Source of the DNA: Corallococcus exiguus
Lineage (GTDB): Bacteria; Myxococcota; Myxococcia; Myxococcales; Myxococcaceae
Reading direction: 5' to 3' (one strand)
Length of the DNA stretch: 57,113 nt
Assembly (NCBI RefSeq): GCF_012985225.1
Contig: NZ_JABEKZ010000024.1
Shown: in pieces, positions 1,219 to 20,219 of the stretch
Layout of the letters: every line of letters begins with the position of its first letter
Numbering within the stretch: the first letter of the stretch is position 1
Position numbers and translations under genes: made by a program
The notes under the pieces: generated by a model
Database searches by the model: none
What the model saw: only the letters and a program-made list of their open reading frames with translations
Told to the model about the DNA's origin: nothing

Positions 1219-2487
1219 TTAGTCATTGTCAATGCCCATGAGTTTCTTTCGTCTTCCGACAGATGTTTTTCTCTCGAAATTCGCAACAAACGCAATAGAG
1301 CTTCCGGCGTCGTTCTTTTTTTGAGCCCACAGGTCGACAATCGTTTTGACAACCTGGGCTCCCTCCTTGGCGGCACCGACCAGTGAGCCAACAAGAAGCA
1401 GGTGCCACGGGTTTGCGTTTGGAATGACATTGCCCGTGAGAGTCGCAATGCCACCGCCCAGCGCGATATTTGTTGCGTGTGCGGCCAGTTGGCCAAACAG
1501 CTTCTGATATGTTGCCGTTAGCTGTCTGTCGTACTGGGCGAGGGATGGATTTAGTTTGCCGTGGATATATTTTGTCACCTCGAGTCTCGTCTGTTCGCTC
1601 CAGGGGTTGTCTTTTAGGAGGGATGCGAATCCGGTTATATCTTCGGAGACATATCTGTGTCGTGCCTCCTCCATTGCCGACCTGTACCGTATGATTTCAT
1701 CGGCGGCGCAAAGAGTGAGCGCGCCCTTGGCGAAGATCTCATTTGATACCGAGAAGGCGACCTCTCCGATTCTTGTCCTTAGCTCGACTTCAGCGAGAGC
1801 ACTCGGTTGGTACTGGTTTAGTATGTCCAAGCCCAGCTTGTATTGTTCGTATTTGTATTTGAGCGCCGCGCGATGATCGGGGCTGTGGAATATTGGAATA
1901 GATGAGAAATGGTCCGAAGCTATCAGGGTGCCGGTTATCGATTTTGAAACTTCCACTGCGGGCGGATCGGCAACCGTGTGTAGCATTATGTCCGCAGGTG
2001 GTTCCGTCTGCGTCCGGATCGTAATGGCCCCCGTGAGCTTCAGCAAATCGTAGTCGGCTGGCTTGGTTCTGCATATCTTGTTGAATTCCTTGTCCTTGAT
2101 GTCGCCCGAGATAATTGCGAATTTGGCGTTATTGATGTCTTCGGGTGTTCGAGGCTGTTGGGTTGACTTCAGAATACCGGCCTCTTTGAGGGCGTGGACG
2201 GTTTCTCTGAACTCTGAGTCCTTAAAGCCTGATAGCGGAAATGAGAGCGACTCTTCTGTGTCTCGAAAATAGTTGAACTTGGATGCGTTAACCCTCTCGC
2301 CGTTTGGGGTTTGAATTGTGTTGTTTTTGATAAATGAGTCTTTTATTGTGTTTAGTGTTGGCGGCGTGATGTAGATCTCGTCGAAGAGCAGGGCGAGCCG
2401 TTTAATCGTCTGCGTCAATTCTGGCGAGTTGCCCTCGCCTCTGTCGGTTATTGTCAGATTGGCTCTTAGTGGTGTAGTGCGTGGCAT
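1219..2487 (-). CDS. Hypothetical 422-aa protein. It is a low-GC, opposite-strand insertion (moron) between the portal and protease genes
   Basis: Long ORF on the minus strand in a clearly AT-richer stretch (~50% GC against ~68% around it). No recognisable motifs. The C-terminal part is hydrophobic (LLLVGSLVGAAKEGAQVV). Confidence 0.5.
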   Translation of the reverse strand: MPRTTPLRANLTITDRGEGNSPELTQTIKRLALLFDEIYITPPTLNTIKDSFIKNNTIQTPNGERVNASKFNYFRDTEESLSFPLSGFKDSEFRETVHALKEAGILKSTQQPRTPEDINNAKFAIISGDIKDKEFNKICRTKPADYDLLKLTGAITIRTQTEPPADIMLHTVADPPAVEVSKSITGTLIASDHFSSIPIFHSPDHRAALKYKYEQYKLGLDILNQYQPSALAEVELRTRIGEVAFSVSNEIFAKGALTLCAADEIIRYRSAMEEARHRYVSEDITGFASLLKDNPWSEQTRLEVTKYIHGKLNPSLAQYDRQLTATYQKLFGQLAAHATNIALGGGIATLTGNVIPNANPWHLLLVGSLVGAAKEGAQVVKTIVDLWAQKKNDAGSSIAFVANFERKTSVGRRKKLMGIDND

Positions 2488-2617: not shown

Positions 2618-3304
2618 ATGCGCAAGCCTCTTCAGCGAGCCCGCCGTCTTGTCGCCCAGAAGGACGCCCCTGTTCCGGCTAAGGGCCAGCCAAAGGTCTT
2701 CACCTTCCGGGCAAACGACGCAGACTTCGACCGCTACAACGATCGCCTGTCCGTCCAGGGTTGGCGGCTCGACGCCTACTCCGCCAACCCCGTCATCCTC
2801 TACATGCACGACGACGGCTCGGGCGGGCTGTTCGGCGCGGGCCGCACGGATGTGCTGCCCATCGGCAAGGGCCGCGCCTACGTCCAGGGCGACGCCCTTC
2901 TGGTGGACATTGAGTTCGACCAGGACGACGAATTTGCTCGGCGCGTCGAGTCCAAGGTGGAGAAGGGCATCCTCAACGCGGTGAGCGTGCGTTACCGCAT
3001 GCTGCGCTACCACGAGAACGAGCGCGGTGGTTACGACTGCGACGAGCAGGAGCTTCTCGAAATTTCCGTCGTCACGATTCCCGGCAACCAGCGCGCGGTG
3101 CGGCTGAAGAAGCACGCCGACGAACGCGCCGCCCTCATTCGCGACATCGCGGACGCGGTGGTGAAGGCGCTTGGCCGCAAGGCGCGGAAGAAGGGCAAGG
3201 CTGCGCCGCCCGCCGCACCTCCCTCCCTTTCCGAGTCCGACACCCATGCCCTTGCCGCTCACACGGCCCGGGCCCTGTTGCAGCACCTCCAGGAGAAGGC
3301 ATGA
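2618..3304 (+). CDS. Prohead (maturation) protease, HK97 family, S78/U35-like
   Basis: FTFRANDADFDRYNDRLSVQGWRLDAYSANPVILYMHDD...ISVVTIPGNQRAV matches the HK97 prohead protease pattern. Its stop overlaps the capsid ATG (ATGA at 3301). The exact start is uncertain. Confidence 0.65.
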   Translation: MRKPLQRARRLVAQKDAPVPAKGQPKVFTFRANDADFDRYNDRLSVQGWRLDAYSANPVILYMHDDGSGGLFGAGRTDVLPIGKGRAYVQGDALLVDIEFDQDDEFARRVESKVEKGILNAVSVRYRMLRYHENERGGYDCDEQELLEISVVTIPGNQRAVRLKKHADERAALIRDIADAVVKALGRKARKKGKAAPPAAPPSLSESDTHALAAHTARALLQHLQEKA

Positions 3305-4524
3305 CCCCCGAGCAGATGCAGGAGATGGCGAAGTCGCTGGGCCCGCTGGTGGCCGCGCAGTTGGTGGAGCAGTCCAAGGGGCACCGCGACAGCTACGCGG
3401 CCCTGTTGGGCTCCAAGGTGCCCGACGCCGTGCCCGAGGAGCCCCGCCGCTCGCCGATTACTGGCAAGCACATGACGGAAGGCACGGGCCTTAACCTCAT
3501 CCGTTTCGTGAAGGCGAAGGCTGTCGCGCGCATGGAAGGGCGCAACGTGGTGGATGTGCTGAAGAGCTGGGGCGACGAGGTGGTGAGCAAGGCCCTTTCT
3601 CAGGGCAACTACTCGGGCCTGGGCTCGCTGGTGCATCCCCAGTTTGCCTCTGAGTTCATCGAACTGCTGCGCAACAAGGCCGTGGTGCGGCAGGCCGGCG
3701 CCCGCGTCATCCCCATCGGCGCCTCGCTCACCTTCGACCGGCAGTCCAGCACGGGCACGGCCTTCTACGGCGGAGAGACGAGCACCATCCAGGAGTCGGA
3801 GCCGGGCACGGACACGGTGTCCCTGTCCGAGAAGAAGCTCACGGCGCTGACGGCGGTGCCAAACGACCTCATCCGCAATGCGTCCGTCAACGCCGAGGAG
3901 TTCATCCGCAACGACCTGCTGAACGTCATGGCGCTGCGGGAGGGCATGGCCTTCCTGCGGGGCAGCGGGACGCAGCTGGAGCCGCGCGGCATCCGCAACC
4001 AGGTGGACGCGGCCCACGTCTACGCGGAGACGGTGGCCACGGCGGGCGCGCCCACGCTGGGCGAAATGAAGAAGGAGCTGAACAAGGCGAAGAAGAAGCT
4101 GAAAAAGGCCAACGTGCCCATGGTGCAGCCGGTGTGGCTGATGTCCCCCAACGCGGAGACGGCCATTCTCGATGCTCCGGGGCCTGGCGGAGAGGGGACC
4201 AACGCCCTGGAGCGGGAGATGGTGGAGCGCGGCACGCTGCGCAACGTGCCCTTCTTCGTCACGAACCAAATTCCGGAGACGCTCGGCTCGGGCAAGAACT
4301 GCTCGGAGCTCTACCTCGTGGACATGGCCGAGGTGCTTATCGGCGAGTCCATGGCGCTGGAAATCGACGTCTTCCCTAACGGCGCCTTCACGCGTGGCGG
4401 CCAGGTGGTGTCCGGCATCTCCACGGACCAGACGGTGCTGCGCGCCATCACCAAGCATGACCTGGCCATGCGCCACCGGCAGTCCGGCGTCGTGGTGAAG
4501 GACCTGAGCTGGGGCAGCAACTGA
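3301..4524 (+). CDS. Major capsid protein, HK97 fold
   Basis: 407 aa. It follows the protease directly, and its size and sequence pattern fit HK97-family major capsid proteins. Confidence 0.8.
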   Translation: MTPEQMQEMAKSLGPLVAAQLVEQSKGHRDSYAALLGSKVPDAVPEEPRRSPITGKHMTEGTGLNLIRFVKAKAVARMEGRNVVDVLKSWGDEVVSKALSQGNYSGLGSLVHPQFASEFIELLRNKAVVRQAGARVIPIGASLTFDRQSSTGTAFYGGETSTIQESEPGTDTVSLSEKKLTALTAVPNDLIRNASVNAEEFIRNDLLNVMALREGMAFLRGSGTQLEPRGIRNQVDAAHVYAETVATAGAPTLGEMKKELNKAKKKLKKANVPMVQPVWLMSPNAETAILDAPGPGGEGTNALEREMVERGTLRNVPFFVTNQIPETLGSGKNCSELYLVDMAEVLIGESMALEIDVFPNGAFTRGGQVVSGISTDQTVLRAITKHDLAMRHRQSGVVVKDLSWGSN

Positions 4525-4991: not shown

Positions 4992-5651
4992 ATGGCGCAT
5001 CCTGCTGACCTGTGCCTGGCTGCGACCGTGGCGGATGACCTGGGCGTGGCGGTGACGCCGCGCCTGGAGTCCCTCGTCACGGCGGCGAGCCGGGCCGTTG
5101 CTGGCTACTGCGGCCGGGTCTTCGAGTACGGCCAGGGCCTCGTGGAGTACCCGGCGGGCTACGGGCGCCCATTGCTGCTGCTGGAGCGCCCGCCCGTTGT
5201 GCTGGTGGTAAGCGTCTGGGAGGGTGGTGCCTTCGTGCCGGCCGAGGAGTACGAGAGCCACGGGAAGCTGGCGGATGCCGGCATGCTGTACCGCAGGCGC
5301 GGTGTGTGGCCGGAGACGGCACGCTCGGGCGGCCTGGTGGTGGAGGCGGTAGACAGCTTCCAGGGCAGCGAGGACAGCATCCGCGTCGTCTACGATGGCG
5401 GCTTCGTGACGCCGGGGCAGCGAGCCCTGGGCGCGTCGCGCGTGGTGACGCTGCCGGAAGACGTGCAGGAGGCCACCGTCCACACGGCGGTGCAGCTGTA
5501 TCGCTCGCGCGGCGTGGACGCCATGGTGGCCAGCGAGTCCATCGGGGATTGGTCCGTGAGCTACTTCGCCGCGAAGACCGAGGGAAAGAGCCCCATCCTT
5601 GACGTCGCGCAGGCGTTGCTCGCGCCCTTCGTCATTCATCGGGTGAGCTGA
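4992..5651 (+). CDS. Head-tail connector protein, gp6-like, with an extra C-terminal region
   Basis: The N-terminal stretch DLCLAATVADDLGV...LVTAASRAVAGYCGRVF fits the gp6-like connector pattern. At 219 aa it is about twice the usual size. Confidence 0.5.
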   Translation: MAHPADLCLAATVADDLGVAVTPRLESLVTAASRAVAGYCGRVFEYGQGLVEYPAGYGRPLLLLERPPVVLVVSVWEGGAFVPAEEYESHGKLADAGMLYRRRGVWPETARSGGLVVEAVDSFQGSEDSIRVVYDGGFVTPGQRALGASRVVTLPEDVQEATVHTAVQLYRSRGVDAMVASESIGDWSVSYFAAKTEGKSPILDVAQALLAPFVIHRVS

Positions 5652-5974
5652 TGGCCTCGCCTTCGGACACCTTCCGTCAGTCGATCACGTATGCCGTGTT
5701 GACGGGACGGGACGCCTACGGCAAGCCGGCGCTCGGGCCCCAGGCGACGGCGCGGGCTCGTGTGCAGCCGTCCCGACGTCTCATCCGTGATGCCAACGGC
5801 AACGAGCATCTGGCGGCGCACGTTGTCTACACGGACGCGGTTCTCACGTTGCAGCATCGCGTGTGGCTGCCGGGGGAGGACGTGGCGGACTTCAACCGCG
5901 CGCGGCGCCCCGTAGCTGTGGACGAGAGCGTGGACGGCTCAGGCACCGTGCGCTTTCGGAAGGTGTGGTTCTGA
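5651..5974 (+). CDS. Head closure / head-tail adaptor protein
   Basis: 107 aa. Its position and the pattern ...DAYGKP...ARVQP...VYTDAVLTLQHRVWL are consistent with SPP1 gp16-like head closure proteins. Its start overlaps the previous stop. Confidence 0.5.
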   Translation: MASPSDTFRQSITYAVLTGRDAYGKPALGPQATARARVQPSRRLIRDANGNEHLAAHVVYTDAVLTLQHRVWLPGEDVADFNRARRPVAVDESVDGSGTVRFRKVWF

Positions 5975-6402
5975 TGCGGGACATCGCTTCGGAACTAGCA
6001 ATGCTGCTAGAGGGAGCCGAGCTGGGCCTCGTGCGTCCTCCAGGTCCGGGCGCCAACCTCTTCACTTCACCAATGCCTGAGGAGGAGGGCGACGTGCCGG
6101 ACCGGGCCGTGGCTTTGGTGGTGTCTGGGGGCGCTAGGCCACAGCCCTACCTGGGGCTACGGCGTGCCGCATACTTTGTGACGAGTTGTCAGGTTCGCGT
6201 CCGCTCCGCGCGAGAGGATTTCGGTGGTGGGCAACTGCTCGCCAATGCTGTCTTCGCCGTCCTTGAGCAAGCGTGCGTAACGCCCGGTGTTAGTCGGTCC
6301 GAAGAGGGTGCTCCTGTCTATTTTGGGTCCGACGGATCGGATAGATATATTTGGAGTATGAATTTTACTGTTGGGAACAGATGGATGCCAGGAGTCCGCT
6401 AG
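5974..6402 (+). CDS. Putative neck / tail-completion protein
   Basis: ATG at 5974 overlaps the upstream TGA. The stretch LFTSPMPEE..DVPDRAVALVVSGG resembles minor neck proteins of siphoviruses. Confidence 0.4.
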   Translation: MRDIASELAMLLEGAELGLVRPPGPGANLFTSPMPEEEGDVPDRAVALVVSGGARPQPYLGLRRAAYFVTSCQVRVRSAREDFGGGQLLANAVFAVLEQACVTPGVSRSEEGAPVYFGSDGSDRYIWSMNFTVGNRWMPGVR

Positions 6403-6532
6403 TGTCATGAGAAGGGCTCCTGGCGCTTTGCGACAATCGCCACAAATGGTGCCCATGCGGCAGGATGAGTTTGTCGCAATGGGTTGCGGCTATTTCTTGT
6501 GCTTTGTGAGGCCTAGAGAGGGTCTTGGTTTT

Positions 6533-7330
6533 TTATTTCGGAGGATTCTCGTTGGGGCCGCCGATGCTGTCCGGAAGTAGAGTCCGTGCAACTTCAAAGC
6601 CTCCCTTTAGCACTTTGCGGTTGACGGGGTTCGATGCCCAACGGGCAAATCTGACGAAAATTGCAGCCACCACGCCCTTTGCTTTTAGTGAGTCGACCTG
6701 GGCTTTCAATGCAGAGAATTCACGGGTGAGCTTGTCGATTTGGTCCTTGGCTTCAGATTTATCTTTGGTCGATGTGGCAATGTTTTCTTTGAGGGATGTT
6801 TCGACTGCATCAAGCCTAGACTTCAGTGCGTCCGCTTGTTCTATGGAGAGGTAGTCGTCGGTGATGTTGGCATAAGATTCGAGTATGTTCTGGAGTTCTT
6901 GCTCTTGCTTTCGGGCAGCGCGTGCAGCCGGTGCCGCGCGCAGCTCGCCCTCTAGGTGATTCAGCCAGCTTGAAATGGCGGAGAGTAATCCATCTTTATT
7001 TGCGACAGACATGCTTTCCGAGATGTTGATTTCGCCTGGAGACATGTCAAGATCGATGCGGAAAAAGGAGCCATCGTTGTTGCTGATTTTTTTGTTTGGT
7101 ATGTTTGCGGTGAGTCGAAATTTGCTTTCGTGGGCGTATTCGATTGTTAGTTTGCTGTCTCCGAATACGGACTGTTCGAAAGTTGTCTTGAAGTCGCCAC
7201 GGTCGAAATAGGAGCCACGGGAAAGGACCTCTGAAATCTCGTTGATTAGCTGGTGGCGCATGGGGGGTGTACGGGCAGGTTCGTTGTGGCGCTGTCGGAA
7301 CAGCATGATCTCCGAAGTTGTTGCCCCCAT
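6533..7330 (-). CDS. Hypothetical 265-aa coiled-coil protein. It is a second low-GC, opposite-strand moron
   Basis: Minus-strand ORF in an AT-richer island (~6400-7330). The central part is heptad-like (ELQNILESY...LKSRLDAVETSLKEN...IDKLTREFSALKAQVDSLKAKG). The start is uncertain, with alternatives at 7306 and 7261. Confidence 0.45.
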   Translation of the reverse strand: MGATTSEIMLFRQRHNEPARTPPMRHQLINEISEVLSRGSYFDRGDFKTTFEQSVFGDSKLTIEYAHESKFRLTANIPNKKISNNDGSFFRIDLDMSPGEINISESMSVANKDGLLSAISSWLNHLEGELRAAPAARAARKQEQELQNILESYANITDDYLSIEQADALKSRLDAVETSLKENIATSTKDKSEAKDQIDKLTREFSALKAQVDSLKAKGVVAAIFVRFARWASNPVNRKVLKGGFEVARTLLPDSIGGPNENPPK

Positions 7331-7341
7331 TTAAGTGGGGG

Positions 7342-7743
7342 ATGCCTGTTCGAGTCAAAGCCGATACGGTGAAGCTGGAGCGCCTGCGCCGCTCTCCCGT
7401 CGAGGTGCTGCGCGAGCTAGACGGCCCATGCCGGGACATCGCCCGCCTTGCCCTGGACTACTCCCTCTTCCTCGTTCCGGTGGGAGAGGGCCATCTGCGC
7501 GATAGCGCCTTCCTGAGTGGCCCGCTTCACAACCTGAGCCAGCGCCTCTCCACGACGTGGACGGCGGGCTACGTGCACCCGTCCGCAGGCCCCATTCACG
7601 AGGGCTGGCACTGGGGCGCGCAGCTCTTCAACCCGCCACCGCACTTCCTTCGCAAGTCGTTCCGCCGTGCCCGTGGCAGCGCTCGCCGCCGCGTGGCCGC
7701 CGTCCTGAAGGACTTCCTCGCGCAGCGCTTCCCATCCCAATGA
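7342..7743 (+). CDS. HK97 gp10-like tail/head-tail component
   Basis: VPVGEGHLRDSAF matches the gp10-family vPvdTG.LrrS motif. ATG at 7342 is in frame with the track ORF 7318. Confidence 0.5.
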   Translation: MPVRVKADTVKLERLRRSPVEVLRELDGPCRDIARLALDYSLFLVPVGEGHLRDSAFLSGPLHNLSQRLSTTWTAGYVHPSAGPIHEGWHWGAQLFNPPPHFLRKSFRRARGSARRRVAAVLKDFLAQRFPSQ

Positions 7744-7757
7744 CAGGAGCCGCCATC

Positions 7758-8183
7758 ATGCCGGAACCCCGAGAGGCCTTCTTCGACAAGCTCTACATCC
7801 GAGCGACGGACACCGCGCCCGTCGAGGCGGACGCGCTGGATGGCGTGCTGGAGGCGCCCGTCAACCGGGCCAAGGACACGGTGGATGCCAATTACTTCGG
7901 CGGAGACGGGTACAAGCGCACGAAGGGCACCTGGAAGTCCTTCTCCATTCCGCTGTCCGGCCACGTCTTCAAGGGCAGCGCGCCCCAGCAGGTGCTGCGT
8001 GACGCCTTCGAGAGCGACGCCACGGTGTTCTTCACCATCGTGGAGGACGAGACGGCCCCCATGGGCACGCAGGGCTACCGCTATCCGGTGAAGGTGACGT
8101 CCTACGAGGAGGGGCGCAGCTCCACGGACGTCGTCACCTTCTCCGCCACCCTCGCCGGCCAGGGCGCGCCCGTCGCGGTGTAG
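7758..8183 (+). CDS. Major tail (tube) protein
   Basis: 141 aa. A good SD (AGGAG) lies 8 nt upstream of the ATG at 7758. It sits between the gp10-like gene and the chaperone pair. A longer version starting at ATG 7740 is possible. Confidence 0.5.
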   Translation: MPEPREAFFDKLYIRATDTAPVEADALDGVLEAPVNRAKDTVDANYFGGDGYKRTKGTWKSFSIPLSGHVFKGSAPQQVLRDAFESDATVFFTIVEDETAPMGTQGYRYPVKVTSYEEGRSSTDVVTFSATLAGQGAPVAV

Positions 8184-8219
8184 CCGACTGCTTTCCCACT
8201 CCCCACCCGAGGCCTCACC

Positions 8220-8603
8220 ATGACCGCACCCACCACGCTCCGAAAGCCCCTCGGCACCCGCCGCAAGCTGCACAAGCGCGTCACTCTGGACGGCGCCGAC
8301 TACGACATCTGCCAACCGCCTCTTGGCGAGAAGCTTGAACTGCTCGCCGCCGCGAAGGCCGCCAAGGAACTGGGGCCGGACAGAAAGCCCGTCGATGAGT
8401 TCGCGGGAATGGCGATGATCGCCCGCATCGCCGTCCTCTGCCTCTACCACCCAGACACGGCCATCCGCGTCTTCGATGAGTCGGAGGTCGGCCAGGTGAA
8501 GCTCGAGCCCTGGCTGGAAGAGATTCAGGACGAACTCGCCCGGGCCTTCGCGGGACCGACGCTGGAGGAGGCGAAGGGAAACTCCGTAACCACCCCGAGC
8601 TGA
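8220..8603 (+). CDS. Tail assembly chaperone, gpG-like
   Basis: 127-aa ORF directly upstream of the tape measure. It ends just after a GGGAAAC heptamer. Confidence 0.6.
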   Translation: MTAPTTLRKPLGTRRKLHKRVTLDGADYDICQPPLGEKLELLAAAKAAKELGPDRKPVDEFAGMAMIARIAVLCLYHPDTAIRVFDESEVGQVKLEPWLEEIQDELARAFAGPTLEEAKGNSVTTPS

Positions 8604-8803
8604 GGGCGCTGCACGCGGTGGTGAAGCTGACGGGCCAGTCGCCCGAGGAAGTGCGCGGCTGGGCCTGGGAGGACGTCGTTTACCTCCTGGCCCACTGCGC
8701 CCTGGAGGCCGAGGAGGTGCGCAGCACGCGTGCCCCCGGCCCCGCCTCCCATGCCGGCCCGATGACGACGACAACGGTTTTCAGAAAGCGTCCCAAGAGG
8801 TGA
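8220..8803 (+). CDS. Predicted tail assembly chaperone G-T fusion, made by a programmed -1 ribosomal frameshift at 8576-8582
   Basis: The heptamer G GGA AAC sits in the 0 frame of the G ORF, 7 codons before its stop. A -1 slip continues in the frame of ORF 8618..8803, giving ...EEAKGKLRNHPELRALHAVVKLTGQ...RKRPKR, which ends 4 nt before the tape-measure ATG. Confidence 0.5.
8576..8582 (+). promoter_or_regulatory. Slippery heptamer GGGAAAC, a -1 programmed frameshift site
   Basis: It has the X XXY YYZ form and is phased to the gpG reading frame, in the conserved G/GT position ahead of the tape measure gene. Confidence 0.5.
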
Positions 8804-8806
8804 GGC

Positions 8807-11488
8807 ATGGCCGGAGGCCTGCGCGTAGGCGACTTGTATGTGGCGGTGACGGCCTCCGTGGGCGAGGCCCTGGCCAACCTCGGCAAGGTGGTGGAGGCCG
8901 TCGAGAAGGCCGCCAAGCAGGTGAAGGAAAAGTCCAAGGGGCTGGGCGAGATTGGCGCGGCGGTGGCGGCGGGGATTGCCGGCGCCGTCGCGGCGGCGTC
9001 CAAGTCCAATGCGGCCATGGAGCGCGAGACGGAGCGGATGACGGCGCTCCTCTACACGCTGGCGGCGGACGTCGGCGACGCCTTCCTGCCGGTGGTGCAG
9101 CACGTCGCGGACGGTGTCGAGCGTGTGGTGGCGAGCTTCCAGTCCCTCTCTCCGGAGATGAAGGCCGCCGCCTCGGACGTGCTCGTGTGGGTGGCTGGGG
9201 CGGGCCTCGCGGCTGGAGCGCTGGGGAAAGTGGCGAACGTTGTGGAAGGCGTGGCCACGGGCGCGGGCGGGCTGGTGAAGGTGCTGGGCCTGCTCAACAA
9301 GTCCGTCGGCCTGGCCTCCCTGGCGACCTCCATGGACAAGGTGACGGCCTCGATGGGCGGCATGGTGGCCAGCACGCCGTCCGTCACTGGCAGCCTGGGA
9401 CGCTTGGCCCTCTCCACCGGAAGCCTGCTGGTGCCGCTCGCGGCGGTGGCCGCTGCCGTGGCGGCGCTGGTGCTGCTGGCGGGTAGCGTCTACGCGGCCT
9501 GGGAGGACAGCAGCACGGGCCTCGCAGACTTCTTCCGGGACTTGGGCGACCAGCTGGCGAAGTGGGCGGGCCGCATCGCGGACGGCTTCTCCCGGGCCTT
9601 CCTGGCGCTGGGTGACTTCGTGAAGGGAGCGGCCCTCTCCGTCCTAGACGGCGTCGCGGCCCTGGTTCGCGGCGTCTCCCGCCTCCTGGAGCCCGTGGCG
9701 CGGCAGGCGGGCTTCCCGGAGCTGGCCGCCACCTTCCGGCAGGTGTCCACCATCACGGGCCGAGAGCTGCTGGAGACGCTGGGGCAGGGCGCCCAGGTGC
9801 TTTGGGATGGCGCGCGGCAGACGGCAGTTGCGGTGGGCGACGCCGTGGCCGGCGCGGGGCGGGAGCTGGAAGAGAGCGTCGCCTACGGCCTGCGCACCAG
9901 TGCGGCGGGTGCGAAGCGGCTCGGGGCGGACCTCGCCCGGGCCCTCAACCTGGAGGGCGTCACGTCGCAGATTCAGGCCCTCCTGGCGAAGCTGGCGGGT
10001 GGGGGTGGGGCACAGGGCAAGGCGCGCATCCGCAAGCCCACGGACAAGGCCGCGCTGGAGGCCGCCCAGAAACAGGAAGCGGCGGAGCAGGCCGCCATGG
10101 CGAAGCTCCAAACCCAGGCCAACGAGGAGTCGCGCAAGGAGTACCTGGCCAGCATCCGCGCGGAGGAGGCCGCCGGCGCCGCCGCATTCCACGAGATGCG
10201 CCTGGAGGCCGAGAGCCTCGCCGCTGAAGCGGAAGCGGCCATGGAAGCCGCGAGGGAGTCGCTGGTGGACCGCTTCATCGGCGGCCTGGGCCAGCTGGGC
10301 GACCTCATCAACGCGGGCATCCAGGGCATGGAGGCAGGCGGTGTCTACGGCGCCATCATCGCCGTGGTGGGCGAGTTGCTCATGCAGTCCGAGGGCTTCA
10401 AGGGCGTCATCGAGTCCGTCAACACGCTCATCCAGAAGGTGGCCGACTCGCTGGGCACACTGCTGGAGCCGCTCCAGCCCCTGCTCAACGCGGTGACGAT
10501 GGTGGTGGACGGCTTTCTCTCCGCCCTGACACCCGTCTTCGAGATGCTGGGGGAGGCGATTGAACCGCTGGTGCCGCCGCTGGTGATGCTGGGCGACATC
10601 GTGAAGGGCCTGGCGCCCCTTTTCGAGGTGCTGGGCCGCACCTTCCTGCTGATTCAGCAGCCGCTCAGCATCCTGGGCGGGCCCATCATGAAGGCCCTTT
10701 TCACGGCGCTGAAGTTCGTCGGCAGCGTCGTCCTCACCATCGCGAAGGCCATCAGCGAAGTCTGGAATGCCGTCATCGGCGCGGTGCAGACCGTCATCCG
10801 CGCCATCTCCAGCCTCATCGACTGGACGGGCTTCGACGGGCTGAAGAAGTTCGCGCGCTCGCTCAACAAGCTGAAGGTGGACACCGACAGCATGGACGAC
10901 TCCCTGCGCGTGCTGGAGGACACGACGTGGGACTCGGCGAAGGCGCGTGCCGAGGAAACCGCCCAGGTGGAGGAGCACACGGAGGCCGTGGCCCGCGCGA
11001 CGGCAGCACTCACCAACGTGCCGACCGCGTGGAAGGTGGCGCTGCGCCGCTTCGAGTCCGAGGACACGCAGGACGGCCCCACGGTGCCGCCCAAGCCGAA
11101 GCCCACGCCCGGGTCCGACGACAACGACGAGGCGGAGGCATCTGACGGCCCCACCTCGCCCAGCGGGCCAGTGCCGGGTTGGCTCTTCGGCATGTTCCCG
11201 CCCGAGCTCCAGCAAATCCTCTTGGGGCAGGTGCCCGCGATGCCTGCGGCGCCGGGTTGGTTCGGCAGCTACCTGCCTCCTGGCTTCAGCGGAGGAGGGC
11301 AGGTGCGTGCGCCCGAGGCGGGCAACGTCTCCGCCATGGCCGCGCCCGTCACCTACAACATCACCGGCTACGACATCGACGCCGCCATGGAAGCGACGCG
11401 GCGGGACGAGTCGCTGCGCCAGCAGCGTGCGAGCATCCGCGTTGCTGGCAGCCGCGTGCGCCTCACGGCGCGCTTCTCTGGCTCTTGA
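8807..11488 (+). CDS. Tail tape measure protein
   Basis: 893 aa. It is Ala/Gly/Leu-rich and strongly helical, with long coiled-coil stretches, and sits after the G/GT pair. Confidence 0.8.
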   Translation: MAGGLRVGDLYVAVTASVGEALANLGKVVEAVEKAAKQVKEKSKGLGEIGAAVAAGIAGAVAAASKSNAAMERETERMTALLYTLAADVGDAFLPVVQHVADGVERVVASFQSLSPEMKAAASDVLVWVAGAGLAAGALGKVANVVEGVATGAGGLVKVLGLLNKSVGLASLATSMDKVTASMGGMVASTPSVTGSLGRLALSTGSLLVPLAAVAAAVAALVLLAGSVYAAWEDSSTGLADFFRDLGDQLAKWAGRIADGFSRAFLALGDFVKGAALSVLDGVAALVRGVSRLLEPVARQAGFPELAATFRQVSTITGRELLETLGQGAQVLWDGARQTAVAVGDAVAGAGRELEESVAYGLRTSAAGAKRLGADLARALNLEGVTSQIQALLAKLAGGGGAQGKARIRKPTDKAALEAAQKQEAAEQAAMAKLQTQANEESRKEYLASIRAEEAAGAAAFHEMRLEAESLAAEAEAAMEAARESLVDRFIGGLGQLGDLINAGIQGMEAGGVYGAIIAVVGELLMQSEGFKGVIESVNTLIQKVADSLGTLLEPLQPLLNAVTMVVDGFLSALTPVFEMLGEAIEPLVPPLVMLGDIVKGLAPLFEVLGRTFLLIQQPLSILGGPIMKALFTALKFVGSVVLTIAKAISEVWNAVIGAVQTVIRAISSLIDWTGFDGLKKFARSLNKLKVDTDSMDDSLRVLEDTTWDSAKARAEETAQVEEHTEAVARATAALTNVPTAWKVALRRFESEDTQDGPTVPPKPKPTPGSDDNDEAEASDGPTSPSGPVPGWLFGMFPPELQQILLGQVPAMPAAPGWFGSYLPPGFSGGGQVRAPEAGNVSAMAAPVTYNITGYDIDAAMEATRRDESLRQQRASIRVAGSRVRLTARFSGS

Positions 11489-14761: not shown

Positions 14762-15328
14762 ATGATTCCCAATCCTGAACTCTTCTCCCGTCTCGATTTG
14801 AAGTCCCTCTATCCGCCCTTCCAGGCGGTGATGGGGGAAGTCATCGCCCGTTGCCGTGCACGCGGCGCGGACTACGTCGCCACGCGCGGCTACGCCACCT
14901 TCGCCGAGCAGCGCGTGCTGCACCTGCGCTACCTGAAGGGGGAGGGTGGCCGTGCGGCTCCGGAAGGACTCTCCGCGCACAACTACGGCCTGGCGAACGA
15001 CTTCTGCCGCGATGGCGATGTGGACCGGCCTGGGCTCCAGCCGCGCTGGGACGGGCCGGCCTACGCCATTCTCGGCGAGGAGACGCGCCGCGCGGGCTTG
15101 GCTTGGGGTGGCTCCTTCGGGGATGCGCCGCACTGTCAGTGGCCCGGCCTCGTGAGCGGCAGCCAGCTGGAGCCCGTGCGCGGCCTCTTCCTCTCGGAGC
15201 CAGCGGGCAGCACGGACGCGCAGCGGCTCGCCGCCGTCTGGCGCTTCCTCGACACGCTGCGCTCGATGCCGGAGTGGCGCGCCATGCACCCGGCGCTCGC
15301 CGCCTCGCTGGCGCGGCTCGGCTTCTGA
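14762..15328 (+). CDS. Endolysin, peptidase M15 (VanY / L-Ala-D-Glu peptidase-like)
   Basis: SAHNYGLANDF matches the SxHxxGxAxD motif, and a ...GDAPHCQW metal-ligand-like segment follows. It occupies the lysis-cassette position after the fibre gene. Confidence 0.55.
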   Translation: MIPNPELFSRLDLKSLYPPFQAVMGEVIARCRARGADYVATRGYATFAEQRVLHLRYLKGEGGRAAPEGLSAHNYGLANDFCRDGDVDRPGLQPRWDGPAYAILGEETRRAGLAWGGSFGDAPHCQWPGLVSGSQLEPVRGLFLSEPAGSTDAQRLAAVWRFLDTLRSMPEWRAMHPALAASLARLGF

Positions 15329-16271: not shown

Positions 16272-17441
16272 ATGCCCGACACGACAACTGACGACCTGGC
16301 GCGCACCGAAGCCTCCGCGCTCCGCAGGCAGCTTCCGCCGACGCCTGAGAGGCCGCTGCACCTATTCACCATCGACGGCATCCGCTACGAGGCCGTCCGC
16401 GAACTGGTGCTGATGGAGACGGGTGAGGTGCTGATGCTGGCCCATCGCTTCTCAGAGCGCGGCAACAAGCTGGCCGGCCATTGCTTCGTGCGGCGGCTGG
16501 CGAACCCCTCCACCTTCATGCAGCGCACGCGGCTGGGGGAGGAGATTCAGCTGGCCTTCCGTCTGCGCCACCCGGCCATCGCCACCGTGTTTCACCGCAA
16601 GGTGCACAAGGGCGCGCTGCACGCCGTCATGGAGTACGTGGACGGCCCCTCGCTGGAGACGCTGGTGAGTGCGGGTGTTGCGCGCGGCCGGCCCGTCTCC
16701 GAGGCCTTCGCCCTCTACGTCGGCGCGGAACTCGCGGAGGCCCTGCATCACGCACACACGCTGACGGACGCGGACGGCAAGGCGCTGGGCGTCATCCACC
16801 GCGACGTCAACCCCCGGCACGTCTACGTGGGGACGCAGGGCGAGGTGAAGCTGACGAACTTCGGCGCGGCGTACTCGCTGGTGGTGGGGCGCGAGGAGTC
16901 GCCCGCGAGCCTCGTGCGTGGCGACGTGGCGTATGCCTCGCCGGAGTACCTGACGCGGCAGCCGCTTTCGCCTCGCTCTGACGTCTTCAGCCTGGGCGTG
17001 CTGCTGGTGGAACTCTTCACCGGCAAGCACCTCTTCGACGTGGAGGACGTGCCGCGCCCGCTCAAAGGCATGGTCCGCCTCCAGCCCGAAATCCTCCCTT
17101 CGCTGCCGCTCACGCAGATGCAGGTGCTGCTGGACAGCTTTGGGCCGGAGGACGTCGAGGAGGCCGTGGCCTCACTCTCTCCGGACGTGAAGGCCATGCT
17201 GCATGTCGCGTTGCGCGCCAAACCCGAGGGGCGATTCGCCACGGCGGCGGACATGCGCGATGCGATGCGCGTTGCCCTGGCGAGGCGGCACCCTGGCTAC
17301 GGCCGGCAGGAAGCCGCAGCGGAATGGGCCCAGGTGCTGGCGGAGGGCAGCGTCCTTCGCGATGAGGTGGAGTTCGGCGAGGAGCGCTTCTTCCCCGAGG
17401 GGCTGGAGGCTCACGAGTTGGAGGGCTTGAAGCGGGAGTAG
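16272..17441 (+). CDS. Ser/Thr protein kinase-like protein, predicted pseudokinase
   Basis: Kinase fold with HRDVNPRH and APE-like SPEYL. The VAIK lysine is missing (FVRRL), DFG is replaced by NFG, the catalytic-loop Asn is His, and the Gly loop is degenerate. Confidence 0.6.
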   Translation: MPDTTTDDLARTEASALRRQLPPTPERPLHLFTIDGIRYEAVRELVLMETGEVLMLAHRFSERGNKLAGHCFVRRLANPSTFMQRTRLGEEIQLAFRLRHPAIATVFHRKVHKGALHAVMEYVDGPSLETLVSAGVARGRPVSEAFALYVGAELAEALHHAHTLTDADGKALGVIHRDVNPRHVYVGTQGEVKLTNFGAAYSLVVGREESPASLVRGDVAYASPEYLTRQPLSPRSDVFSLGVLLVELFTGKHLFDVEDVPRPLKGMVRLQPEILPSLPLTQMQVLLDSFGPEDVEEAVASLSPDVKAMLHVALRAKPEGRFATAADMRDAMRVALARRHPGYGRQEAAAEWAQVLAEGSVLRDEVEFGEERFFPEGLEAHELEGLKRE

Positions 17442-17445
17442 TGCT

Positions 17446-17805
17446 TCAGCGCGCCAGGGCCGAGGCGACGTGGAGGAGGGCCGCGAGGTCCTCCGCGTCC
17501 AGCTTGCGCGCGAGGTGGAGGAGGCGCCGCAGCTCCGGGGCGTCCTCTTCCTTGGGCTTGGGCTTCGTGGCCTTGCGCACGTCACCCGTGGGAGTCAGGC
17601 CCATCAGCTTCTCGGGAGACACCCGCAGCTCGCGGCAGAGGCGGTAGAGGGAGGGGACGCTGGGAAGCATCTTCCCGCGCTCCAGGCGGTTGTAGACGGG
17701 GTGCACCAGCCCAATGCGCTCCGCGACTTCAGCCTGCGTCAGGCCCAGGTGCTGACGTGCGGCGCGGGCCTCCGTGCCGATGGTGATGCCGATTTCCTCA
17801 TTCAT
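17446..17805 (-). CDS. XRE-family helix-turn-helix transcriptional regulator
   Basis: GLTQAEVAERIGLVHPVYNRLERGKMLPSVPSLYRLCRELRVSPEKLMG is a canonical Cro/CI-type HTH. Confidence 0.7.
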   Translation of the reverse strand: MNEEIGITIGTEARAARQHLGLTQAEVAERIGLVHPVYNRLERGKMLPSVPSLYRLCRELRVSPEKLMGLTPTGDVRKATKPKPKEEDAPELRRLLHLARKLDAEDLAALLHVASALAR

Positions 17806-18371: not shown

Positions 18372-20219
18372 ATGATGCGGGGGCCACCTCCGGCCGTGCT
18401 GTCTCCTGGGGCCCAGGTGCTGGGCTACACGGTGGAGCGCCAGCTGGGGCAGGGCGGCTTCGGCACGGTGTACCTCGCGCGCTGCGAGGGCCAGCGCTTC
18501 GCCCTGAAGCTGCTGCACCTGCCGCGCGTAGGAGAGAGGGCGGAGCGCGAAGTTTCCATCCTCACCCGCCTTCACCATCCCAACGTGGTGCGGATTCTGG
18601 GCCATGGCTACTGGCCGGTGGCCCAGCCGCAATTCATCGTCATCGCTACGGAGTACGTGGAAGGGCGTCAGCTGGACGCGTGGGCCGACGCGGAGAACCC
18701 CACGGCGCGGCAGGTGACGCGCGTGCTGCTGGGCGTGGCACGGGCGCTCGCAGCTGCCCACGCGGATGGGGTGGTGCACCGGGACGTGAAGGAGGCCAAC
18801 GTCATGGTGCGAGCCTCGGACGGCCTGGCCAAGCTGGTGGACTTCGGCATCGGCGACTACGCGGGCGCGCGCGAGCTGACGGCGGACATCCTCCCTCCCG
18901 GGACGGTGGACTACCGCTCCCCGGAGGCGTGGCGCTTCCTGCGTGCTCACCTTGAGGCAAGGGACGCCCGTTACACAGCGGGGCCTGCGGACGACTTGTG
19001 GGCGCTGGGGCTTGTCTCTTACCGGCTGCTGACGGGGCGCTTCCCTTTTGACGGCGAGGACGGCGCCAGCTTGACGGAGGCGATTCTCTCCAGCGAACCC
19101 ACGCCGCCGCACGAGGAGAACGAGCGCGTGCCTCGGGCGCTGAGCGATGTGTGCCTGGGGCTATTGGAGAAGACCCCCGAGGCGCGCACGCCCAGCGCCC
19201 AGGTGCTCTGCGAGTCGCTGGAGCAGGCGCTGCGCGGTGCGGACGAGACGTGGGACGTGCCGCTCTGCGACGCCTACGACGAGGATTCCGCGACGACGGA
19301 GGGGGAGGACATCGACAGCTTCGAGCAGTGGCGGCACCAACCCCGACACCGCCCGCGTCGCGGCAAACGCATTCCCCAGAAACAGGTGCCAGCGGAGGAC
19401 GCGGCTGCTGCGGATGAGACACCGCCGCCCGCGACGACCGTGCGTGTGACGCCTGCGCAGCGTGGGGCCTTCCGCGCCTGGGCGGCGCTCGCGGTGGTGC
19501 TCGTCCTGTCAGGGGCGGCGTGGGGCCTCGGGATGTCGCGCGTCGCAGGGCCAGTCCCCACCCGTCAGGAAGTAGCGCCCTCTGGCAAGTCGTCTCAAGC
19601 TGACCGCGCCGCAGCTCCCACCGGGCCGGAGGCCACCGCTGCGGCCGTCGCTCTCCCCGCGACGCTCCAGGAGGTTTCAGCCACCGTGACGACGCAGCCG
19701 AAAGAGACGCAGCCCCTTCAGTTCCCCTCGAAGCCCGCGAAGAAGGGCATGAGCGTCATGGCCCGTGCTGTCGGCACGGCGGCGGCATGCACGGCGCTCG
19801 CGTGCCCAGGGCCGCAAGTGCGTCCGGCACCTCCTCCGGAGCCGTGCCCAAAGGGTGCTGTGAAGGCCATGGCGAAGCTGGGCATCGACATTGGAGACAG
19901 GCACGAAGCCGTTTTCACCCGTGACCGCCCGCAATTCATTTCTGTTCGGGAAGGCCCTGCCCAGGTGTTCTTGTACGGCGATTGGGAGGAAATGCCGCAC
20001 GGGACAGTTCTGTCTGGTCGGCTAATCGTGCGAGACCGCGTTTACGGGCGACTCACCTCGGCGACTACGCCAAAGGGCGAGAGTTTTCCTGTCTGCCTGG
20101 AGGTCTACGACGTGAAAGACGGGGAACGAGGAATGGCACGCGAGCCCGGAAACGACTCACCTTCCAATGGCCGTATCTTCACGAGCGAATACGTGAGGGC
20201 GGTGAGCGAGTTTGAGTAA
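18372..20219 (+). CDS. Ser/Thr protein kinase, catalytically competent, with a transmembrane segment and a C-terminal extracytoplasmic domain
   Basis: GQGGFGTVY, FALK, HRDVKEANV, DFG and SPE motifs are all present. A Pro/acidic linker leads to a transmembrane helix (AWAALAVVLVLSGAAWGLGM) and a ~200-aa C-terminal domain. Confidence 0.8.
   Translation: MMRGPPPAVLSPGAQVLGYTVERQLGQGGFGTVYLARCEGQRFALKLLHLPRVGERAEREVSILTRLHHPNVVRILGHGYWPVAQPQFIVIATEYVEGRQLDAWADAENPTARQVTRVLLGVARALAAAHADGVVHRDVKEANVMVRASDGLAKLVDFGIGDYAGARELTADILPPGTVDYRSPEAWRFLRAHLEARDARYTAGPADDLWALGLVSYRLLTGRFPFDGEDGASLTEAILSSEPTPPHEENERVPRALSDVCLGLLEKTPEARTPSAQVLCESLEQALRGADETWDVPLCDAYDEDSATTEGEDIDSFEQWRHQPRHRPRRGKRIPQKQVPAEDAAAADETPPPATTVRVTPAQRGAFRAWAALAVVLVLSGAAWGLGMSRVAGPVPTRQEVAPSGKSSQADRAAAPTGPEATAAAVALPATLQEVSATVTTQPKETQPLQFPSKPAKKGMSVMARAVGTAAACTALACPGPQVRPAPPPEPCPKGAVKAMAKLGIDIGDRHEAVFTRDRPQFISVREGPAQVFLYGDWEEMPHGTVLSGRLIVRDRVYGRLTSATTPKGESFPVCLEVYDVKDGERGMAREPGNDSPSNGRIFTSEYVRAVSEFE

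What the first reader, a model, noticed from the sequence alone, without database searches (positions are those of the whole stretch)
8560..8625. Canonical programmed -1 frameshift (GGGAAAC) linking the tail chaperone ORFs upstream of the tape measure gene
The heptamer G GGA AAC lies exactly in the X XXY YYZ phase of the 127-aa gpG-like ORF, 7 codons before its stop. The -1 frame stays open for 74 more codons and ends 4 nt before the tape measure ATG. This reproduces the conserved G/GT arrangement of long-tailed phages, so the prophage tail module is intact in its fine detail. It is also a clean test case of recoding in a 68% GC Myxococcus phage.
Basis: partly seen in the sequence, partly recalled or inferred. 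Interest (0 to 1): 0.55.

Follow-up and report, generated by a model that had tools for sequence, protein, structure and literature searches.

The report
Phage tail chaperone G/GT frameshift site
This is an ordinary but very cleanly supported example of the programmed -1 ribosomal frameshift that long-tailed phages use to make two tail-assembly chaperones from one gene, found here in a Corallococcus/Myxococcus-type prophage with a conserved RNA hairpin six bases downstream.

Summary
G GGA AAC lies at 8576-8582 in X XXY YYZ phase of a 127-aa ORF (8220-8603). The -1 frame runs on to TGA 8801-8803, 3 nt before the tape-measure ATG (8807).

- All 34 related Myxococcaceae prophage loci (G 45-99% identical) keep GGGAAAC in phase.
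- Six more distant relatives carry GGGAAAC, GGGAAAG, AAAAAAG or AAAAAAC at the homologous position.
- The -1-frame peptide is conserved from the slip site onward (dN/dS 0.54 in that frame, 0.9-1.3 in the others).
- No independent start codon is conserved.
- The rare GGA codon is fixed at the site (28/28, against 6/140 at other invariant glycines).
- A hairpin starts 6 nt after the heptamer (8589-8622) and is kept through compensatory changes. In the window's own clade it carries a C·C mismatch.
- The genes sit between major tail and tape-measure genes.

This is a new member of a well-known kind. GGGAAAC is already reported for chaperone frameshifts in other phages. Corrections are minor: the nearest relatives are Corallococcus, not Myxococcus, and no pseudoknot was found. 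Frameshift efficiency and the protein products remain untested.

The parts
7758..8183 (+). Major tail (tube) protein gene, 141 aa, immediately upstream of G
   Evidence: Pfam Phage_tail_2 and PHROG major tail protein hits. ATG at 7758 gives the 141-aa length seen in relatives.
8220..8603 (+). G-like tail assembly chaperone ORF (127 aa), the 0-frame product
8564..8568 (+). Shine-Dalgarno-like GGAGG 7 nt upstream of the heptamer. A possible upstream stimulator, weakly supported.
   Evidence: Read from the sequence. GGAG(G/A) recurs at this spacing in relatives. It is also explained by the conserved Leu/Val-Glu codons, and the spacing is shorter than my recollection of the dnaX arrangement (about 10 nt).
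8576..8582 (+). Slippery heptamer G GGA AAC in X XXY YYZ phase
   Evidence: Position and phase. Invariant in 34 of 34 related loci. GGA is used 28/28 times here against 6/140 at other invariant Gly codons. GGA is 6.9% of Gly codons in the window's genes. Homologous position in distant relatives holds GGGAAAG, AAAAAAG or AAAAAAC.
8583..8588 (+). 6-nt spacer (UCCGUA) between heptamer and hairpin
   Evidence: The same 6-nt spacer is found in L001, L003, L031, L035, L036 and L039.
8589..8622 (+). Stem-loop. 5' arm 8589-8597 (ACCACCCCG) pairs with 3' arm 8614-8622 (CGCGGUGGU). There is a C·C mismatch at 8595/8616 in this clade. A short inner helix pairs 8599-8600 with 8611-8612. The 3' arm contains the only early GTG codons of the -1 frame (8618, 8621).
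   Evidence: MFE fold -13.7 kcal/mol in the window, z +0.66. Relatives have a perfect 9-bp stem at -18 to -25 kcal/mol, z down to -3.9. On alignment A4, 98.9% of cells pair, with compensatory C-G to G-C and C-G to U-A changes and an A-U/G-U/G-C series; 0 of 500 shuffles reach the covariation score.
8582..8803 (+). T region. -1-frame coding sequence read after the shift, from CTC at 8582 to TGA 8801-8803. GT fusion CDS = join(8220..8582, 8582..8803), 194 aa.
   Evidence: Translation. The amino-acid sequence is conserved from the slip site onward across all relatives. Pooled dN/dS is 0.54 in this frame against 0.91 and 1.26 in the other two. No conserved start codon.
8797..8809 (+). Shine-Dalgarno (GAGG 8797-8800) and ATG (8807) of the tape-measure gene. 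The T stop codon TGA (8801-8803) lies between them.
   Evidence: Sequence. The ...AAGAGGTGA GGC ATG arrangement is conserved in the Myxococcaceae loci.
8807..11488 (+). Tape measure protein gene (893 aa)
   Evidence: Ten PHROG tape-measure families hit, best E 7e-19.

Best explanation
This is the tail assembly chaperone pair of a siphovirus-type prophage, expressed by programmed -1 ribosomal frameshifting.

Proposed mechanism:
- Most ribosomes translate 8220-8603 and release the 127-aa G protein.
- A minority pause with tRNA-Gly on GGA (P site) and tRNA-Asn on AAC (A site).
- Those ribosomes slip back one base onto GGG AAA, then read CTC (8582) onward in the -1 frame to TGA 8801-8803.
- The result is a 194-aa GT fusion: G residues 1-121 plus a 73-residue T domain.
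- The pause is probably promoted by the stem-loop at 8589-8622, which begins 6 nt after the heptamer. That places it at the mRNA entrance when the heptamer is being decoded.

By analogy with lambda gpG/gpGT, G and the G part of GT would coat the tape measure protein. The T part would recruit the major tail protein, and neither would end up in the virion.

Shown here: the ORF geometry, the phase, the conservation of the slip site, coding constraint on T in the -1 frame, the absence of a conserved T start, conservation and covariation of the hairpin, the chaperone-like predicted fold, and synteny.

Inferred: that slippage occurs, its efficiency, the stimulatory role of the hairpin, and the protein-protein functions.
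For: Geometry and phase:
- Confirmed.
- Only 6 in-phase canonical heptamers occur in 16,612 codons, and this is the only one leading past a stop.

Conservation of the slip site:
- GGGAAAC is invariant and in phase in 34 loci whose G proteins are 45-99% identical.
- Six distant relatives (about 18-47% identical to one another in alignment A3) carry GGGAAAC, GGGAAAG, AAAAAAG or AAAAAAC at the aligned position.
- In four of them the -1 product runs far enough to be seen as homologous to T; in L037 and L040 the contig ends within a few codons of the slip site.
- In L038 the -1 frame opens exactly at the heptamer and the 0-frame stop is 2 codons later. The frame change is therefore pinned to the heptamer.

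Coding constraint and start codons:
- T-region dN/dS is 0.54 in the -1 frame against 0.91 and 1.26 in the other frames. This matches G in its own frame, at 0.53.
- The first possible start codon in the -1 frame falls at +14 to +28 codons, inside the conserved domain, and is not conserved.
- The rare GGA codon is fixed at the site, 28/28 against 6/140 elsewhere.

Hairpin:
- It has a 6-nt spacer in 7 of 8 lineages tested, with different stem sequences.
- 98.9% of cells pair, with compensatory changes, and 0 of 500 shuffles reach the covariation score.

Protein identity and context:
- BFVD hits are tail assembly chaperones.
- phrog_344 'tail assembly chaperone' is hit by 5 of 8 relatives' GT fusions.
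- Flanking genes are major tail protein and tape measure.

Literature:
- GGGAAAC is already reported as a chaperone slip site in microbacteriophage Trackstar (PMC13460127) and haloarchaeal virus HCTV-1 (PMC5009743).
Against: - There is no experimental evidence for the fusion protein or for any frameshift efficiency.
- The window's own hairpin is interrupted by a C·C mismatch. At -13.7 kcal/mol it is no more stable than shuffled sequence of the same composition (z +0.66).
- The stem lies in coding sequence, and its 5' arm is dual-coding. Part of its conservation is therefore explained by protein constraint.
- By E. coli rules, heptamers ending in AAC shift poorly because AAC to AAA re-pairing is not cognate (PMC4066793).
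- GTG codons exist at 8618 and 8621, so some independent initiation of a 60-61-aa T peptide cannot be excluded.
- The window's G and GT have no direct Pfam, PHROG, NCBIfam or PDB sequence hit.
- Whether the prophage is active is unknown.
Confidence: 0.9

Rival explanations
1. G and T are two independently translated genes. T would start at GTG 8618 (61 aa), as several gene callers annotate, and the heptamer would be incidental.
For: GTG at 8618 and 8621 is present in the window, and a GTG at that position exists in all Myxococcaceae loci. Automatic annotation called separate 59-64-aa ORFs in L001, L002, L004 and L007. A GAGG lies 12 nt upstream of 8618.
Against: - -1-frame amino-acid conservation and synonymous-type changes begin at the heptamer, 14 codons upstream of the GTG.
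- In distant relatives the first start codon is at +17 (L036) or +28 (L038), inside the conserved domain.
- Gene callers disagree on the start (TTG, GTG or no call).
- The GTG is sequestered in the 3' arm of the hairpin.
- The upstream GAGG is not conserved.
- This reading does not explain fixation of the rare GGA codon, nor replacement by other canonical heptamers at the same place.
Confidence: 0.05
2. The frameshift is real, but the 8589-8622 stem-loop is not a stimulator. Its conservation would reflect only the overlapping protein-coding constraints, and slippage would rely on the heptamer alone, perhaps with the upstream GGAGG.
For: - The window's hairpin is no more stable than shuffles (z +0.66 to +1.3) and carries a clade-wide C·C mismatch.
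- 6 of 11 pairs never vary in the close set.
- L038 has only a weak, differently placed structure.
- Some phage G/GT sites are thought to need no strong structure. This last point is my recollection of the lambda literature and was not checked here.
Against: - A stem starts exactly 6 nt downstream in seven lineages, with unrelated stem sequences in L036 and L039.
- Compensatory C-G to G-C and C-G to U-A changes occur.
- Sliding the partner by 1-3 columns drops pairing from 98.9% to 40-47%.
- Weak AAC-type heptamers are expected to need a stimulator (PMC4066793).
Confidence: 0.25
3. The frame change is made at the RNA level by transcriptional slippage of RNA polymerase, not by the ribosome.
For: Some distant relatives have long A runs at the site, for example 8 A in L038 and 6-7 A in L039 and L040. 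Runs of that length can support polymerase slippage (general knowledge; reviewed in PMC5009743).
Against: The window and all 34 close relatives have only G3A3. By established knowledge that is too short for productive polymerase slippage. The conserved in-phase X XXY YYZ pattern and the 6-nt-spaced hairpin are features of ribosomal -1 frameshifting.
Confidence: 0.02
4. A chance heptamer next to a decayed or non-coding spacer, with no recoding and no T product.
For: Long open -1 frames are common in this 68% GC DNA: 19 of 41 genes have 66 or more open codons past their stop.
Against: - About 0.015 in-phase heptamers are expected in the overlap by chance.
- Conservation holds across 40 loci from several genera and metagenomes.
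- Purifying selection acts on T in the -1 frame.
Confidence: 0.01

Closest known systems
Phage lambda gpG/gpGT, and the conserved G/GT frameshift of long-tailed dsDNA phages (described in PMC5009743)
   Same: - Two overlapping ORFs between the major tail gene and the tape-measure gene.
- A -1 shift at an X XXY YYZ heptamer a few codons before the G stop. Lambda uses G GGA AAG, from my knowledge; that heptamer is also seen here in relative L036.
- The short G product is expected to be the major one and the GT fusion the minor one.
   Different: - There is no detectable sequence similarity to the lambda gpG or gpT families: no Pfam hit even at E <= 10.
- The A-site codon is AAC rather than AAG.
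- A conserved 9-bp hairpin lies 6 nt downstream. From my knowledge, lambda's site does not depend on a strong structure.
HK97 tail assembly chaperone (PDB 2OB9)
   Different: Sequence identity is only 16%, the comparison rests on a predicted model (pLDDT 77), and no sequence-level hit was found.
Tail assembly chaperone frameshifts using GGGAAAC: cluster EE microbacteriophage Trackstar (PMC13460127) and haloarchaeal virus HCTV-1 (PMC5009743)
   Same: The same heptamer, the same gene position, the same -1 direction and, for Trackstar, a high-GC genome.
   Different: The hosts are unrelated (Actinobacteria and Archaea, against Myxococcota). No protein similarity was tested or detected, and INPHARED phages gave no match.
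E. coli dnaX -1 frameshift (upstream SD, A AAA AAG, downstream stem-loop)
   Same: A bacterial heptamer followed by a simple stem-loop about 6 nt downstream rather than a pseudoknot, with an SD-like GGAGG upstream.
   Different: The SD-like element here is 7 nt upstream, not about 10 nt, and is explained by Leu/Val-Glu codons. The heptamer is weaker, and the biological purpose is a chaperone pair rather than polymerase subunits. The dnaX details are from my own knowledge and PMC5009743.

Membership tests
Conserved G/GT tail-assembly-chaperone -1 frameshift of long-tailed phages | Two ORFs located between the major tail protein gene and the tape measure gene | tested here: met
   Major tail 7758-8183, G 8220-8603, T to 8803, tape measure 8807-11488. 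The same order is seen in relatives.
Conserved G/GT tail-assembly-chaperone -1 frameshift of long-tailed phages | Second ORF overlaps the 3' end of the first in the -1 frame | tested here: met
   The -1 frame is open 8480-8803 and overlaps G by 124 nt.
Conserved G/GT tail-assembly-chaperone -1 frameshift of long-tailed phages | In-phase slippery heptamer X XXY YYZ inside the overlap, close to the G stop | tested here: met
   G GGA AAC at 8576-8582, with AAC the 7th codon before the stop. It is the only in-phase heptamer in the overlap.
Conserved G/GT tail-assembly-chaperone -1 frameshift of long-tailed phages | Second ORF lacks its own conserved translation start | tested here: met
   The first start candidates lie at +14 to +28 codons after the slip site, inside the conserved domain, and vary between lineages. 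A GTG at 8618 does exist in the window, so a low level of independent initiation is not excluded.
Conserved G/GT tail-assembly-chaperone -1 frameshift of long-tailed phages | Slip site and downstream frame conserved among relatives | tested here: met
   The heptamer is present in all 40 related loci (34 close, 6 distant). The -1 product could be read to its end in 32 of the 34 close loci and in 3 of the 6 distant ones; the other contigs are cut there (L039 after 62 conserved codons). T dN/dS is 0.54 in the -1 frame only.
Conserved G/GT tail-assembly-chaperone -1 frameshift of long-tailed phages | First ORF encodes a tail assembly chaperone (fold or homology) | tested here: met
Conserved G/GT tail-assembly-chaperone -1 frameshift of long-tailed phages | Both G and GT proteins are made at a fixed low GT:G ratio, both are needed for tail assembly, and neither is in virions | not testable with these tools
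   Needs proteomics, reporter assays and genetics.
Pfam lambda-type gpG / gpT and other Phage_TAC families | Significant match to the family HMM | tested here: not met
   No Pfam family was found for G or six homologues at E <= 10, for the T peptide at E <= 1, or for the GT fusion at E <= 0.01. No NCBIfam family matched.
Pseudoknot-stimulated -1 PRF signals | Loop of the downstream hairpin pairs with sequence 3' of the stem, and the pairing is conserved | tested here: not met
   The best loop-to-downstream complementarities are 4-8 nt and fall at different places in different lineages. No Rfam frameshift element matched.
Hairpin-stimulated bacterial -1 PRF (dnaX / IS-element type) | Stable stem-loop starting about 5-9 nt 3' of the heptamer, supported by covariation | tested here: met
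   The spacer is 6 nt and the stem 9 bp, with compensatory pairs. In the window itself the stem is weakened by a C·C mismatch (-13.7 kcal/mol, z +0.66).

The most novel reading that the evidence does not exclude
Myxococcaceae ribosomes and tRNA-Asn may tolerate the 'eukaryote-type' A-site slip AAC to AAA. In that case G GGA AAC plus a simple 6-nt-spaced hairpin would be an efficient signal in these bacteria. The clade-specific C·C mismatch in the Corallococcus hairpin (8595/8616) would then be an evolved adjustment that lowers the GT:G ratio. Together this would give a natural allelic series (perfect against interrupted stem; AAC against AAG heptamers) for studying how frameshift efficiency is set in a high-GC delta-proteobacterial-type host.
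Probability: 0.15. Interest if true: 0.4.

Novelty: new member of a known kind. Interest (0 to 1): 0.25.

Why it matters
- **Annotation.** In public records of these Myxococcaceae prophages the T region is called as a 59-64-aa hypothetical ORF with inconsistent starts, or not called at all. No fused GT product turned up in the protein search. Several IMG/VR prophage predictions end at this junction. Annotating join(8220..8582, 8582..8803) fixes that.
- **Comparative value.** The family gives a clean data set in one protein family: four canonical heptamers at one homologous position, with a co-varying hairpin at a fixed 6-nt spacing. That could help benchmark frameshift predictors in high-GC genomes.
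- **Limit.** It does not change what is known about phage tail assembly or recoding.

Tried and rejected
- **Direct family assignment of G, T and GT.** Pfam, PHROGs, NCBIfam and PDB sequence searches gave nothing for the window proteins. The link to tail assembly chaperones came only from structure prediction and from relatives.
- **Isolated phages.** DNA and protein searches of 50,697 phage records gave no match.
- **Retrieving many distant loci at once.** Only six distant loci could be fetched before the look-up cap.
- **Pseudoknot search.** No conserved loop-to-downstream pairing was found. An Rfam scan returned only a chance miRNA hit at E 0.33.
- **GT fusion structure.** The single-sequence AlphaFold model had pLDDT 45 and is uninformative about the T domain.
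- **Open -1 frame as evidence.** Rejected, because 46% of genes in this window have at least as long an open -1 frame past their stop.
- **Upstream GGAGG as stimulator.** Not adopted. It coincides with conserved Leu/Val-Glu codons, and its 7-nt spacing is shorter than what I recall for the dnaX site.
- **Minus-strand ORFs across the region** (7596-8774, 8525-9103, 8680-9018). The GC pattern of 8680-9018 (GC2 above GC1) is what I would expect of an antisense shadow, and the plus-strand genes have family hits. The other two were not examined further.
- **A listing error of my own.** The in-phase heptamer list was computed in the wrong phase for some loci. The correct list is, and the heptamer itself was verified by direct string search.

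Full report
**1. The observation**

- A 127-aa ORF runs from ATG 8220 to TGA 8601-8603.
- GGGAAAC sits at 8576-8582. GGA (8577-8579) and AAC (8580-8582) are in the ORF's frame, so the heptamer is in X XXY YYZ phase. AAC is the seventh codon before the stop.
- The -1 frame is open from 8480 to TGA 8801-8803.
- A -1 shift on the heptamer would give a 194-aa fusion, made of residues 1-121 of G plus 73 new residues.
- The next gene starts at ATG 8807, with 3 nt between it and the T stop.
- The window is 68.4% GC, and GGGAAAC occurs only once on the + strand.

**2. Is it more than chance?**

The long open -1 frame is not evidence by itself. In 41 likely genes of the window, 19 have at least 66 open -1 codons beyond their stop.

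The heptamer is a different matter.
- Only 6 in-phase XXXYYYZ (Y = A/T) heptamers occur in 16,612 codons.
- That predicts about 0.015 in the 41-codon overlap.
- This is the only one whose -1 product passes the 0-frame stop.

**3. Context**

The surrounding + strand genes form a siphovirus structural module.

| Coordinates | Gene |
|---|---|
| 128-1168 | portal |
| 2618-3304 | prohead protease |
| 3301-4524 | major capsid |
| 4992-5974 | head-tail adaptors |
| 7318-7743 | tail completion |
| 7758-8183 | major tail protein |
| 8220-8603 and on to 8803 | the G/T pair |
| 8807-11488 | tape measure (893 aa) |
| up to 14721 | further tail proteins |
| 14762-15328 | M15 peptidase |

The pair therefore sits exactly where G and T sit in other long-tailed phages.

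**4. What G is**

G, T and the fusion have no Pfam, PHROG, NCBIfam or PDB sequence match. The link comes from structure and from relatives.
- An AlphaFold model built on 7 homologues (pLDDT 77) shows a beta-hairpin followed by helices.
- Foldseek against viral models returns mostly proteins named tail assembly chaperone.
- Fusions reconstructed from relatives hit phrog_344 'tail assembly chaperone' in 5 of 8 cases, best E 3e-6.

**5. Comparative evidence for recoding**

*Close relatives.* Homologues of G are few and almost all from Myxococcaceae. I fetched 34 related loci from genomes, metagenomes and IMG/VR, with G 45-99% identical.
- All 34 keep GGGAAAC in phase at the same position.
- In the 32 loci whose contig reaches that far, the -1-frame peptide is conserved: KLRxHPEL+ALxGVVKLTGQSPExVRGWxWEDVVxLLA...TTVF+KRPKR.
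- In the Myxococcaceae loci with G at least 69% identical whose contig reaches that far, the T stop is 3 nt before the tape-measure ATG.

*Distant relatives.* A profile search of 1.8 billion representative proteins found 37 more distant relatives. Many end in ...KGNSEATPS...KGN or ...KGK. DNA could be fetched for six of them.

| Locus | Heptamer at the homologous position |
|---|---|
| L035, L037 | G GGA AAC |
| L036 | G GGA AAG |
| L038 | A AAA AAG |
| L039, L040 | A AAA AAC |

Where the contig runs far enough (L035, L036, L038, L039), the -1 product is homologous to the window's T domain; L037 and L040 end within a few codons of the slip site.

In L038 the -1 frame opens exactly at the heptamer and the 0-frame stop follows two codons later. 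The frame change must therefore happen on the heptamer.

*Coding constraint.* Pooled Nei-Gojobori dN/dS for the T region is 0.54 in the -1 frame, against 0.91 and 1.26 in the other frames. This mirrors G in its own frame, at 0.53 against 0.89 and 1.59.

*Start codons.* The first potential start codon in the -1 frame lies 14 codons after the slip site in the window (GTG 8618), 17 codons after in L036 and 28 in L038. These are inside the conserved domain and differ between lineages. Gene callers correspondingly give inconsistent T ORFs or none.

*Codon choice.*
- The slip-site glycine is the rare codon GGA in 28 of 28 distinct sequences.
- Five other invariant glycines use GGA in 6 of 140 cells.
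- GGA is 6.9% of glycine codons in the window's genes.

**6. The stimulator**

Folding the downstream RNA gives a stem-loop that begins 6 nt after the heptamer.
- The 5' arm is 8589-8597 (ACCACCCCG) and the 3' arm is 8614-8622 (CGCGGUGGU).
- In the window and its Corallococcus clade the stem has a C·C mismatch at 8595/8616. It reaches only -13.7 kcal/mol, no better than shuffled sequence (z +0.66).
- In the other lineages the 9-bp stem is perfect, at -18 to -25 kcal/mol with z down to -3.9.

The spacer is 6 nt in seven of the eight lineages examined. The stem sequences differ:

| Lineage | 5' arm / 3' arm |
|---|---|
| L035 | GCGACCCCG / CGGGGUCGU |
| L036 | GCGAUCCCGA / UCGGGAUCGC |
| L039 | GCGCCAGGCU / AGCCUGGCG |

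On an ungapped alignment of ten sequences:
- 98.9% of cells pair, and the single exception is the window.
- Two pairs show compensatory double changes (C-G to G-C, C-G to U-A). One shows the series A-U, G-U, G-C.
- No shuffle of 500 reaches the covariation score.
- Sliding the partner by 1-3 columns drops pairing to 40-47%.

Because the stem is coding, and its 5' arm is dual-coding, part of this conservation is protein constraint. I put about 0.65-0.75 on a stimulatory role. No conserved pseudoknot pairing was found, and Rfam has nothing here.

A GGAGG lies 7 nt upstream (8564-8568). It coincides with conserved Leu/Val-Glu codons, so I do not count it as evidence.

The T stop codon lies between the Shine-Dalgarno sequence (GAGG 8797-8800) and the ATG of the tape-measure gene. 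That arrangement would suit translational coupling.

**7. Mechanism**

The best-supported reading, at confidence about 0.9, is a programmed -1 ribosomal frameshift at G GGA AAC yielding G (127 aa, major) and GT (194 aa, minor).

The functional roles are inferred from lambda as summarised in PMC5009743. G would bind the tape measure and T would recruit the major tail protein.

The AAC A-site codon is a weak shifter by E. coli rules (PMC4066793). That fits a low GT:G ratio or a dependence on the hairpin. Efficiency is untested.

**8. Rivals**

- Independent initiation of T at GTG 8618: about 0.05.
- Transcriptional slippage: about 0.02. G3A3 is too short, though relatives with A6-A8 runs might use it.
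- Chance: about 0.01.

All three are disfavoured by the comparative data above.

**9. Comparison with what is known, and novelty**

The arrangement meets every computationally testable defining feature of the conserved G/GT frameshift. The proteins are not sequence members of the lambda gpG/gpT Pfam families.

GGGAAAC has already been reported for chaperone frameshifts in microbacteriophage Trackstar (PMC13460127) and haloarchaeal virus HCTV-1 (PMC5009743). Joined chaperone genes are annotated in 2,397 of 3,679 SEA-PHAGES genomes (PMC10885494).

This is therefore a new member of a known kind. Its nearest relatives are Corallococcus prophages at 91-93% nt identity, not Myxococcus. No isolated phage in INPHARED carries a similar gene.

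**10. Verdict**

- Observation: confirmed.
- Interpretation: supported, with minor corrections.
- Interest: low to moderate (0.25). The value lies in annotation and in a clean comparative example of heptamer turnover with a fixed-spacing hairpin.

Noticed in passing
window 1219-2487 (-) and 6533-7330 (-): Two low-GC genes (about 49-53% against 68%) lie on the opposite strand inside the structural module. A 422-aa protein sits between the portal and protease genes. A 265-aa coiled-coil-like protein sits between the head-tail connector and tail completion genes. Neither has a convincing Pfam or PADLOC match. They look like acquired cargo genes (morons), possibly for defence or superinfection exclusion.
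   Followed up: partly
L001 809-1894, L003 805-1866, L005 582-1970, L004 1256-1969, L002 1678-1953 (all minus strand): The slot corresponding to window 6533-7330 holds different minus-strand cargo in related prophages. L001 and L003 carry a ParA/CbiA-like ATPase. The others carry unrelated 462-aa, 237-aa and 91-aa ORFs. Nucleotide alignments to the window break across roughly 6270-7320. This looks like a variable insertion hotspot.
   Followed up: partly
window 21304-21402 (-): A tRNA-SeC gene (anticodon TCA) is the only tRNA in the window. It lies a few kb beyond the last phage-like gene and is a possible integration-site marker for the prophage's right end.
   Followed up: no
window 16272-17441 (+), 17446-17805 (-), 18372-20219 (+): Two Ser/Thr protein kinase genes flank an HTH (Cro/CI-type) regulator just after the endolysin-like M15 peptidase. 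It is unclear whether they belong to the prophage or the host.
   Followed up: no
L019-L029 (IMG/VR contigs): Many IMG/VR prophage predictions end exactly at the G stop codon or at the T stop codon. Automated prophage boundary calls appear to be cut at this junction, dropping the tape measure and distal tail genes.
   Followed up: no
L017 (BNCN01000010.1, labelled Comamonas sp. KCTC 72670): A contig labelled Comamonas carries a locus about 78% identical in nucleotides to the window. Its G/T junction nearly matches that of Myxococcus loci L003 and L015. The assembly is probably mislabelled or contaminated; otherwise this is a striking host jump.
   Followed up: no
window 8576-8603 and the same stretch in L031-L035: The 28-nt dual-coding stretch GGGAAACUCCGnnnCCACCCCGAGCUGA is almost invariant at the nucleotide level. 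This holds even between loci whose G proteins are only 45% identical. Two reading frames plus the 5' arm of the hairpin constrain it at once.
   Followed up: partly
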